Positions 37,061 to 37,887 of a DNA stretch of 64,000 nt are shown one piece after another; position 1 is the first letter of the stretch, and every line of letters begins with the position of its first letter. The notes under the pieces were generated by a model. It was not told the DNA's origin, ran no database searches, and saw nothing but the letters and a program-made list of their open reading frames with translations. The DNA lies in the NCBI RefSeq assembly GCF_003334355.1, contig NZ_QOWP01000002.1; one strand, given 5' to 3'. The translations under genes were made by a program, and so were the position numbers. Source of the DNA: Escherichia coli. GTDB taxonomy: Bacteria; Pseudomonadota; Gammaproteobacteria; Enterobacterales; Enterobacteriaceae.

Positions 37061-37887
37061 GCAATCCCCCTGTCTGCAAACTTCCCTTCCCGAACTCCCG
37101 TTAACGAGTCTTCCCTCAGCAGGTAATCAAAATCAGCCGTCCAGCCCGTGTCGTTGTCTCCGAAGTAAAACGGCTTGGCCTGATGCACAAACGCCCTGAC
37201 ATACGCTCTGAAACCGTCCACATTTGGCGTTTTCAGTTGCGGGATGATTTTCTTCAGGCGGCGTTTGCGTTTCTCGTTGACCGCAACAGCGTGTGGCAGT
37301 CTGTCACCGACTTCGGTGTTGTAGGCGTTCAGGAAGGATTCGTAGTCGATTCGTTCTGCCTTGCGACGTTCAGGTTTAACCTGCCCATCGCCGCCCCCGT
37401 TAGGGGGTAAGGGGGTATTTGTATTTATTGTCTTTTGTATATTGTCTTTTGTGTTTGACTGATTCGGTAAATTGCTTTTTACCGATTTGGTGAAGGTTTG
37501 TTTTACCGAATTAGTAAATGTTTTACCGAATCCGTTAACTTTCGTTTTCCACTCGGAAATGTTTGTATTCATACCAACTTGACGCCCCACCTGAATGAGA
37601 ACTCCCATTCTGATAAGCTCGTTTTTGGCGGTAGAGCATTTGGTTGGTGCCATGCCAGTGAGTTCAGCGAACTGTTCGTTTCCGATCCAATCTATTTTTT
37701 TGTTGTAACCGTATGTCTTGCGCCACACAGCCATAACAATCAGTAACTGATGTGCAGTAAGCCCAGAAAGCATGGCGGCTTCTAACAGTGTGTTTGCAGT
37801 CCGAGTGTAGCCATCTTCGAGTTCTGCCACGCGATGCTCCACGACCTCCAGTTGAGGCCTGTAATCAGCTAACTTAACGACGCCCAT
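37057..37887 (-). CDS. Replication initiator (lambda O / P22 gp18-like, 276 aa)
   Basis: N-terminal phage replication-protein-O-like domain; central repetitive peptide ([16 protein letters not shown]) encoded by DNA iterons; directly upstream of the helicase. Confidence 0.85.
37427..37531. repeat. Origin-like iteron array inside the initiator gene
   Basis: TTTACCGAAT-type 10-mers at 37462 (inverted), 37477, 37501 and 37521 at ~20-bp spacing; adjacent AT-rich ATTGTCTTTTGT x2 (37427-37452); G/C hairpin CCCCCgttaGGGGG at 37391-37415. Confidence 0.7.

What the first reader, a model, noticed from the sequence alone, without database searches (positions are those of the whole stretch)
37391..37531. 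Replication origin embedded in the initiator gene
Four TTTACCGAAT-type iterons at roughly 20-bp spacing, an adjacent AT-rich duplicated ATTGTCTTTTGT element and a G/C hairpin lie inside the O-like gene; the iterons themselves encode a repetitive [16 protein letters not shown] peptide. This is the lambda-style ori-within-O arrangement.
Basis: partly seen in the sequence, partly recalled or inferred. Interest (0 to 1): 0.35.

Follow-up and report, generated by a model that had tools for sequence, protein, structure and literature searches.

The report
P22-type phage origin inside initiator gene
This is the ordinary, already described replication origin of a P22-like prophage in E. coli, sitting inside the phage's own initiator gene as in phages lambda and P22, so it is correct but not new.

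Summary
Window 37394-37538 lies inside a 276-aa O-like initiator gene (37057-37887, minus strand). It is 139/145 identical to the segment that the phage P22 reference record annotates as rep_origin inside gene 18.

Two points of the description need correction:
- **Repeat unit.** The unit is a 17-bp imperfect palindrome, consensus TTTACCGAWTCGGTAAA, not a 10-mer.

The four iterons start at gene offsets 350, 370, 394 and 417, the same offsets and 20/24/23 spacing as lambda's four iterons. A 39-bp, 79% A+T segment with a duplicated 13-mer follows, then a short C5/G5 inverted repeat that folds no better than shuffled sequence.

In 70 distinct related genes, the iteron type follows the type of N-terminal domain without exception. 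Iteron and AT-rich columns are conserved beyond what coding requires.

A DnaB-type helicase gene follows the initiator, as P22 gene 12 follows gene 18, where lambda has P.

The host is an E. coli chromosome carrying a prophage of about 36 kb at argW. Replication function was not tested.

The parts
37057..37887 (-). O-like replication initiator gene (276 aa), homologue of P22 gene 18 and HK97 O
   Evidence: ORF. Pfam Phage_rep_O, TIGR01610 and PHROG 345. 92% aa identity to BTP1 O, 76% to P22 gp18, 71% to HK97 O and 29% to lambda O.
37549..37833 (-). N-terminal origin-binding domain of the initiator (aa 19-113), P22 type
   Evidence: Pfam match aa 19-113. This block is 87-97% identical to P22/BTP1 DNA and about 50% identical to HK97.
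37394..37538 (-). Whole origin: equivalent of the P22 annotated rep_origin (iteron 1 through the C5/G5 inverted repeat)
   Evidence: 139/145 identical to NC_002371 32840-32984.
37522..37538 (-). Iteron 1, TTAACGGATTCGGTAAA (gene offset 350)
37502..37518 (-). Iteron 2, TTTACTAATTCGGTAAA (gene offset 370)
   Evidence: It differs at 3 positions from P22 iteron 2.
37478..37494 (-). Iteron 3, TTCACCAAATCGGTAAA (gene offset 394)
37455..37471 (-). Iteron 4, TTTACCGAATCAGTCAA (gene offset 417).
37416..37454 (-). AT-rich, strand-asymmetric segment (79% A+T) with two copies of the 13-mer ACAAAAGACAATA. Presumed DNA-unwinding element.
   Evidence: Identical in P22, BTP1 and HK97, and shares ACACAAAAGACA with lambda. 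Only 5 of 46 columns vary among 41 distinct relatives.
37394..37407 (-). Short inverted repeat CCCCC-N4-GGGGG at the distal edge of the origin
   Evidence: 5-bp stem, not above shuffles. The C5 and G5 runs are kept in divergent relatives whose loop, codon phase and amino acids differ.
35684..37060 (-). DnaB-family replicative helicase gene (P22 gene 12 homologue). Its start overlaps the initiator's stop codon.
   Evidence: ORF. PHROG 19 at E = 1.4e-135. Best NCBIfam matches TIGR00665 DnaB and TIGR03600 phage_DnaB, both below the curated cutoffs.
38746..38775 (-). pR-like promoter match upstream of cro-cII-O-helicase. Candidate source of transcription through the origin.
   Evidence: Consensus match TTGACT-16-CATAAT. 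This is a pattern match only.

Best explanation
Window 37394-37538 is the vegetative (theta-mode) replication origin of a P22-like prophage integrated at argW in an E. coli chromosome. It lies in the linker-coding part of the phage initiator gene, between the N-terminal DNA-binding domain and the C-terminal domain.

Inferred mechanism, taken from lambda and P22:
1. After derepression, transcription from the pR-like promoter expresses cro, cII, the initiator and the helicase, and passes through the origin.
2. Dimers of the initiator bind, through the N-terminal Phage_rep_O domain, to the four 17-bp palindromic iterons and wrap them into an O-some-like complex.
3. This destabilises the adjacent AT-rich segment.
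4. The C-terminal domain then brings the phage's own DnaB-type helicase to the opened DNA. In lambda, by contrast, P hijacks host DnaB.

What is shown here: the sequence anatomy, the homology to the annotated P22 origin, the match in spacing to lambda, the co-inheritance of iteron type with N-domain type, and DNA-level conservation. What is inferred: binding, unwinding, helicase loading and any dependence on transcription.
For: - Initiator identity is established by three profile libraries.
- The origin segment is 95.9% identical (139/145) to the P22 rep_origin feature. [quoted passage not shown]
- Iteron starts at gene offsets 350/370/394/417 equal those of lambda's iterons, whose annotated 18-mers start at 349/369/393/416.
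- Each iteron is a near-palindrome (6 of 8 pairs). The pooled consensus of 164 iterons from relatives is the perfect palindrome TTTACCGA(A/T)TCGGTAAA, as expected for a dimeric binder.
- Co-variation is complete: 54 of 54 distinct genes with the P22-type N-domain carry four such iterons, and 16 of 16 with the HK97-type N-domain carry none, having TTAGCC...GGCTAA-type repeats at the same place.
- In the window's mosaic gene, the P22-like block (nt ~48-437) ends just after iteron 4, which ends at nt 433.
- Constraint goes beyond coding. Among 41 distinct P22-type sequences the variable columns are 16/68 in iterons, 11/16 in spacers and 187/304 in the N-domain. At third codon positions the counts are 9/22 in iterons against 90/101 in the N-domain (Fisher p = 4e-6), and 2/15 in the AT-rich segment (p = 4e-9).
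- A DnaB-family helicase gene follows directly, and a pR-like promoter lies upstream.
- The mechanism of O binding to iterons with an AT-rich tract in the middle of O is described in PMC7466680.
Against: - No experiment on this sequence exists, and none on the P22 origin itself could be read here. The P22 record says only 'similar to phage lambda'.
- The hairpin is not thermodynamically distinctive.
- Conservation of the AT-rich box may partly reflect its use as a recombination junction between mosaic modules rather than selection for unwinding.
- Iteron 2 of the window differs from P22's at 3 positions, with unknown effect on binding.
- The related sequences are phylogenetically close, so the Fisher tests treat non-independent columns as independent.
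Confidence: 0.9

Rival explanations
1. The repeats are only a by-product of a repetitive peptide linker (KTFT.SVK repeated) in the initiator and have no role at the DNA level.
For: The repeats do encode a repetitive peptide, [17 protein letters not shown]. They fall between the Pfam domain (aa 19-113) and the C-terminal part, where a flexible linker is expected.
Against: - A peptide repeat does not explain the dyad symmetry of each 17-mer.
- It does not explain why third codon positions in the iterons are far less variable than in the N-domain (9/22 against 90/101).
- It does not explain why spacers vary more than iterons (11/16 against 16/68).
- It does not explain the exact match in position and spacing to lambda's experimentally defined iterons, although the peptide there is different.
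Confidence: 0.02
2. The sequence is a P22-type origin by descent but is no longer functional, because the prophage is a decaying remnant.
For: The prophage is about 36 kb, slightly shorter than P22 at 41.7 kb. Iteron 2 has three changes relative to P22. Nothing here tests activity.
Against: - The initiator, helicase, cro, cII and repressor ORFs are all intact.
- An identical initiator protein is encoded at many IMG/VR viral loci (rows listed at 100%).
- The initiator gene is 100% identical in DNA in an E. coli strain that carries it in a different prophage next to ybhC, which points to recent mobility.
- The window's iteron 2 variant also occurs in other loci.
Confidence: 0.07
3. The iterons serve mainly as a titration or regulatory site (autoregulation of the initiator, or exclusion of related phages) rather than as the initiation site.
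For: Cloned lambda iterons together with oop inhibit replication of rep-lambda phages, but not of rep-P22 phages, in trans (PMC3349717). Iteron arrays can therefore have inhibitory side-effects.
Against: That effect is secondary to origin function in lambda. The adjacent conserved AT-rich element and the helicase gene are what an initiation site needs.
Confidence: 0.01

Closest known systems
Phage P22 ori within gene 18 (with gene 12 helicase)
   Same: 139/145 identical over the annotated rep_origin. Same four iterons, AT-rich box and C5/G5 repeat, and the same position in the gene (P22 feature at gene offsets 353-497; here 350-494). The N-terminal domain is the same type, 87-97% identical in DNA over nt 48-437. 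A DnaB-type helicase gene lies downstream.
   Different: Six substitutions, three of them in iteron 2. The first ~16 codons and the C-terminal half of the initiator are HK97/BTP1-like rather than P22-like, at about 55% DNA identity to P22 beyond nt 483. The host is E. coli, not Salmonella, and integration is at argW.
Phage lambda ori within gene O
   Same: Four dyad-symmetric iterons at identical gene offsets and 20/24/23 spacing, followed by an AT-rich segment that shares ACACAAAAGACA, all inside an initiator with a Phage_rep_O N-domain.
   Different: The iteron sequence is unrelated (TCCCTCAAAACGAGGGA against TTTACCGAATCGGTAAA). The protein is only 29% identical. Lambda follows O with P, which recruits host DnaB; here a phage DnaB-type helicase follows. 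Lambda has a longer palindrome at the place of the C5/G5 repeat (read from the alignment and from my own knowledge of ori-lambda).
HK97 / mEp213 / Stx-phage O genes with DnaB-type helicase
   Same: The first ~47 nt, the AT-rich box, the C5/G5 repeat and the whole C-terminal half are 97-100% identical. The helicase is of the same type.
   Different: The N-terminal domain and iterons are of another specificity (TTAGCCAAGTCGGCTAA type).
Stx phages P27/933W ori (lambda-type, 6 iterons)
   Same: The origin lies in the middle of O, with iterons plus an AT-rich tract. O is a dimer (PMC7466680).
   Different: Those have six lambda-like iterons, an O protein 13 aa longer, and a P gene. Here there are four P22-type iterons.

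Membership tests
Lambdoid origin-within-initiator (ori-lambda type) | Origin located inside the initiator gene, between the N-terminal DNA-binding domain and the C-terminal domain | tested here: met
   Iterons at gene nt 350-433, just after the Pfam Phage_rep_O domain (aa 19-113, nt 55-339).
Lambdoid origin-within-initiator (ori-lambda type) | Array of four ~17-19-bp iterons with internal dyad symmetry, about two helical turns apart | tested here: met
   Four 17-mers, 6 of 8 palindromic pairs each, spacing 20/24/23, identical to lambda's.
Lambdoid origin-within-initiator (ori-lambda type) | AT-rich, strand-asymmetric segment directly downstream of the iterons | tested here: met
   37416-37454: 79% A+T, 72% purine on the coding strand. 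Shares ACACAAAAGACA with lambda.
Lambdoid origin-within-initiator (ori-lambda type) | Initiator carries the phage O N-terminal domain | tested here: met
   PF04492 at E = 1.7e-36. TIGR01610 at 85.4 bits against a cutoff of 45.5.
Lambdoid origin-within-initiator (ori-lambda type) | Iteron sequence co-varies with initiator N-domain specificity | tested here: met
   54 of 54 P22-type and 16 of 16 HK97-type genes carry the matching iteron type. The mosaic junction lies directly after iteron 4.
Lambdoid origin-within-initiator (ori-lambda type) | Initiator binds the iterons and supports initiator-dependent replication of the fragment | not testable with these tools
   Needs EMSA or footprinting and a plasmid replication assay.
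P22-type replication module (gene 18 / ori / gene 12) | Sequence identity to the P22 origin | tested here: met
   139/145 over NC_002371 32840-32984.
P22-type replication module (gene 18 / ori / gene 12) | DnaB-family helicase gene immediately downstream instead of a lambda P-type loader | tested here: met
   35684-37060 (-): PHROG 19 at E = 1.4e-135. Best NCBIfam matches are DnaB and phage_DnaB, below the curated equivalog cutoffs.
P22-type replication module (gene 18 / ori / gene 12) | Whole initiator orthologous to gp18 | tested here: inconclusive
   Only the N-domain and iteron block is P22-like. The C-terminal half is HK97/BTP1-like, and overall aa identity to gp18 is 76%. The gene is a mosaic allele.

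The most novel reading that the evidence does not exclude
The short C5/G5 inverted repeat at the distal edge of the origin may be a functional DNA element, for example a boundary or entry signal for the phage DnaB-type helicase. Its two runs are kept in divergent relatives even where the loop, the codon phase and the encoded amino acids differ (PPNGG against PPEGE). On this reading it would be specific to lambdoid origins paired with a phage-encoded helicase, in place of lambda's longer palindrome.
Probability: 0.1. Interest if true: 0.3.

Novelty: already known. Interest (0 to 1): 0.07.

Why it matters
It matters little beyond correct annotation. RefSeq annotates the corresponding E. coli region only as 'replication protein' with no origin feature. 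Transferring the P22 rep_origin annotation would mark where this prophage family starts replication after induction.

The comparative data give a clean illustration of a textbook point: in lambdoid phages the initiator's DNA-binding domain and its iterons move as one cassette, with the shared AT-rich box as the crossover point. This confirms existing knowledge rather than adding to it.

Tried and rejected
- **Hairpin as evidence.** Folding the G/C hairpin region as single-stranded DNA gave -5.9 kcal/mol and z = +0.76, no better than shuffles. It was rejected as independent evidence for an origin.
- **RNA families.** An Rfam scan of the whole window found only tRNA-Arg and no RNA family at or near the origin.
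- **Solved structures.** A PDB sequence search with the initiator found no relative at E <= 0.01, so no structural argument about iteron recognition could be made.
- **P22 genome paper.** PMC94795 is not held. The primary paper on genes 18 and 12 (Backhaus and Petri 1984) could be confirmed only as a citation, so its content was not used as evidence.
- **Extra consensus hit.** A fifth match to the iteron consensus at 38504-38520 (3 mismatches, inside the cro-like gene) was treated as chance.
- **Repeat tool.** The repeat finder did not list the 14-bp-period duplication in the AT-rich segment. It was confirmed by a direct pattern search instead.

Full report
**What is in the sequence**

The finding (37391-37531) lies inside a 276-codon ORF on the minus strand, 37057-37887. 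The genes around it read as a lambdoid early-right operon running leftward:
- a cI-like repressor, inside ORF 38631-39503 (+);
- a cro-like gene, 38486-38716 (-);
- a cII-like gene, 38068-38364 (-; PHROG 191);
- a 53-aa ORF, 37874-38035 (-; PHROG 1331, the HK97 gp53 / P22 orf48 position);
- the 276-aa ORF itself;
- a 458-aa DnaB-family helicase, 35684-37060 (-);
- ninB, 34969-35409 (-).

The 276-aa protein is an O-type initiator. Pfam Phage_rep_O covers aa 19-113 at E = 1.7e-36. TIGR01610 phage_O_Nterm scores 85.4 bits against a cutoff of 45.5. PHROG 345, 'replication initiation O-like', matches at E = 1.8e-106 over the full length.

**Checking the observation**

TTTACCGAAT with at most one mismatch occurs four times between 37462 and 37531, but one copy (37462-37471) is on the opposite strand. 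The repeat finder shows why. The unit is a 17-bp imperfect palindrome, reported both as four direct copies and as inverted-repeat pairs.

The four copies, written along the gene, are:

| Iteron | Window coordinates | Sequence | Gene offset |
|---|---|---|---|
| 1 | 37522-37538 | TTAACGGATTCGGTAAA | 350 |
| 2 | 37502-37518 | TTTACTAATTCGGTAAA | 370 |
| 3 | 37478-37494 | TTCACCAAATCGGTAAA | 394 |
| 4 | 37455-37471 | TTTACCGAATCAGTCAA | 417 |

Each copy has 6 of 8 self-complementary pairs. Against the consensus TTTACCGAWTCGGTAAA with up to 3 mismatches, the 64-kb window has 5 hits where 0.13 are expected, and no shuffle out of 100 reached 5. With up to 2 mismatches these four are the only hits.

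The other elements check as follows:
- The duplicated element is real. TATTGTCTTTTGT occurs at 37426 and 37440 and nowhere else, against 0.16 expected.
- The surrounding 39 bp (37416-37454) are 79% A+T and purine-rich on the coding strand.
- The 'G/C hairpin' is a 5-bp CCCCC/GGGGG stem (37394-37407). It folds no better than shuffled sequence: z = +0.76, with 161 of 200 shuffles folding at least as well.
- The peptide [16 protein letters not shown] is in the translation.

**What it is**

The window segment 37394-37538 aligns to that feature without gaps and is 139/145 identical. The six differences are three in iteron 2, two in spacers and one in the loop of the C5/G5 repeat.

The lambda record annotates four iterons as 18-mers starting at gene offsets 349, 369, 393 and 416. 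Their 17-bp cores start at 350, 370, 394 and 417. These are exactly the offsets and the 20/24/23 spacing found here, although the iteron sequences are unrelated. The AT-rich box is identical in P22, BTP1 and HK97, and it shares ACACAAAAGACA with lambda.

[quoted passage not shown] For lambdoid phages in general, the origin (iterons plus an AT-rich tract) lies in the middle of O (PMC7466680).

**Comparative evidence that the DNA itself is functional**

I fetched 80 related loci from IMG/VR and added P22, BTP1 and HK97, which gave 70 distinct sequences of the initiator reading frame including the window.

- **Iteron type follows N-domain type without exception.** All 54 genes with the P22-type N-domain have four TTTACCGA-type iterons. 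All 16 with the HK97-type N-domain have none; at the same place they carry repeats of the type TTAGCCAAGTCGGCTAA.
- **The window's own gene shows the cassette.** It is a three-part mosaic. Nucleotides 1-47 are HK97-like, about 48-437 are P22/BTP1-like (HK97 about 50% identical), and 438-831 are HK97/BTP1-like (P22 about 55% beyond nt 483). The specificity block ends just after iteron 4, which ends at nt 433, inside the shared AT-rich box.
- **Conservation exceeds what coding requires.** The table gives variable columns among 41 distinct P22-type sequences (75-99% identical to the window).

| Region | Variable columns, all positions | Variable columns, third codon positions |
|---|---|---|
| Iterons | 16/68 | 9/22 |
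| Spacers between iterons | 11/16 | 4/6 |
| N-domain | 187/304 | 90/101 |
| AT-rich segment | 5/46 | 2/15 |

Fisher tests at third positions give p = 4e-6 for iterons against the N-domain, and p = 4e-9 for the AT-rich segment against the N-domain. The sequences are related, so these p-values are generous, but the direction is clear.

Pooling all 164 iterons gives the perfect palindrome TTTACCGA(A/T)TCGGTAAA. Divergent relatives (L047-L055) carry that exact sequence as iteron 2.

**How it most likely works**

The mechanism below is inferred from lambda and P22; only the anatomy is shown here.

1. After derepression, the promoter-like site at 38775-38748 (TTGACT-16-CATAAT) drives cro, cII, the initiator and the helicase, so transcription passes through the origin.
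2. Initiator dimers bind the four dyad-symmetric iterons through the N-terminal domain and assemble an O-some-like complex.
3. A-tracts at the 3' edge of iterons 1-3 (gene offsets 364, 384 and 408) may add intrinsic bending, as I recall for lambda. That comparison with lambda was not tested here.
4. The complex opens the adjacent AT-rich segment.
5. The C-terminal domain delivers the phage-encoded DnaB-type helicase. This differs from lambda, where P captures host DnaB. It is the arrangement of P22 (genes 18 and 12) and of HK97.

**Context**

The window is E. coli chromosome. From the left it reads fadJ-fadI-fadL-yfdF-mlaA-yfdC-argW (tRNA-Arg CCT, 7776-7850), then intS, an acyltransferase and a tailspike. 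Host DNA (dsdA, dsdX, emrY, evgS, oxc) resumes at about 44 kb. This is a P22-like prophage of about 36 kb at argW.

The same initiator allele occurs full-length in 34 of 5426 complete E. coli genomes. It is 100% identical in strain 10, where it sits in a different prophage next to ybhC. RefSeq annotation there names the protein but no origin.

**Verdict**

The feature is the already described P22-type origin inside the initiator gene, in a mosaic allele common in enterobacterial prophages. Novelty: already known. Interest is low.

The only mildly open point is whether the conserved C5/G5 repeat does anything. Its runs persist in relatives with a different loop, codon phase and amino acids, but as a structure it is not distinctive.

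Noticed in passing
window 38092-38119 (+ strand): A terminator-like hairpin (12 pairs, followed by a T-run) lies antisense to the 3' end of the cII-like gene (38068-38364, -). This is the position where lambda has the oop terminator and where the P22 record annotates one, which suggests an oop-like antisense RNA in this prophage.
   Followed up: partly
window 37057-37887 (-): The initiator gene is a three-part mosaic: nt 1-47 HK97-like, ~48-437 P22/BTP1-like, 438-831 HK97/BTP1-like. The downstream junction falls in the AT-rich box ACACAAAAGACA, which is shared by P22, HK97, BTP1 and partly lambda, so that box probably serves as a recombination crossover point between replication modules.
   Followed up: yes
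window 7776-12265 and ~44000: The prophage is integrated at argW (tRNA-Arg CCT, 7776-7850). The order is argW, intS (7976-9169, +), an acyltransferase-like ORF (9505-10287, +) and a tailspike (10328-12265, -). Host genes (dsdA, dsdX, emrY, evgS, oxc) resume at about 44 kb. The integrase is therefore next to the tailspike end, not the early-left end, in the prophage map. I recall this as the usual layout for phages that integrate at argW, but I did not check it.
   Followed up: partly
L005 (NZ_CP146507.1 4745963-4770793): A 100% identical copy of the initiator gene sits in a different prophage, integrated next to ybhC in E. coli strain 10. This shows that the replication module moves between prophages with different integration sites.
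   Followed up: partly
window 38504-38520 (+): A fifth, weaker match (3 mismatches) to the iteron consensus, TTTACCGATACGGCGAA, lies inside the cro-like gene about 1 kb upstream of the origin. It is probably chance.
   Followed up: no
L047-L056 (IMG/VR loci), ori region: More divergent relatives (~80% aa identity) keep the four iterons, and iteron 2 is the perfect palindrome TTTACCGAATCGGTAAA. Spacer sequences differ, and the distal repeat is CCCCC-GGA-GGGGG, encoding different amino acids. The L047-L049 reading frames are also longer (966 nt stop-to-stop).
   Followed up: partly
window 34382-34972 (-): An MT-A70-family DNA methyltransferase-like ORF (196 aa) lies in the nin region just after ninB, as in HK97 and in the strain 10 prophage annotation.
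   Followed up: no
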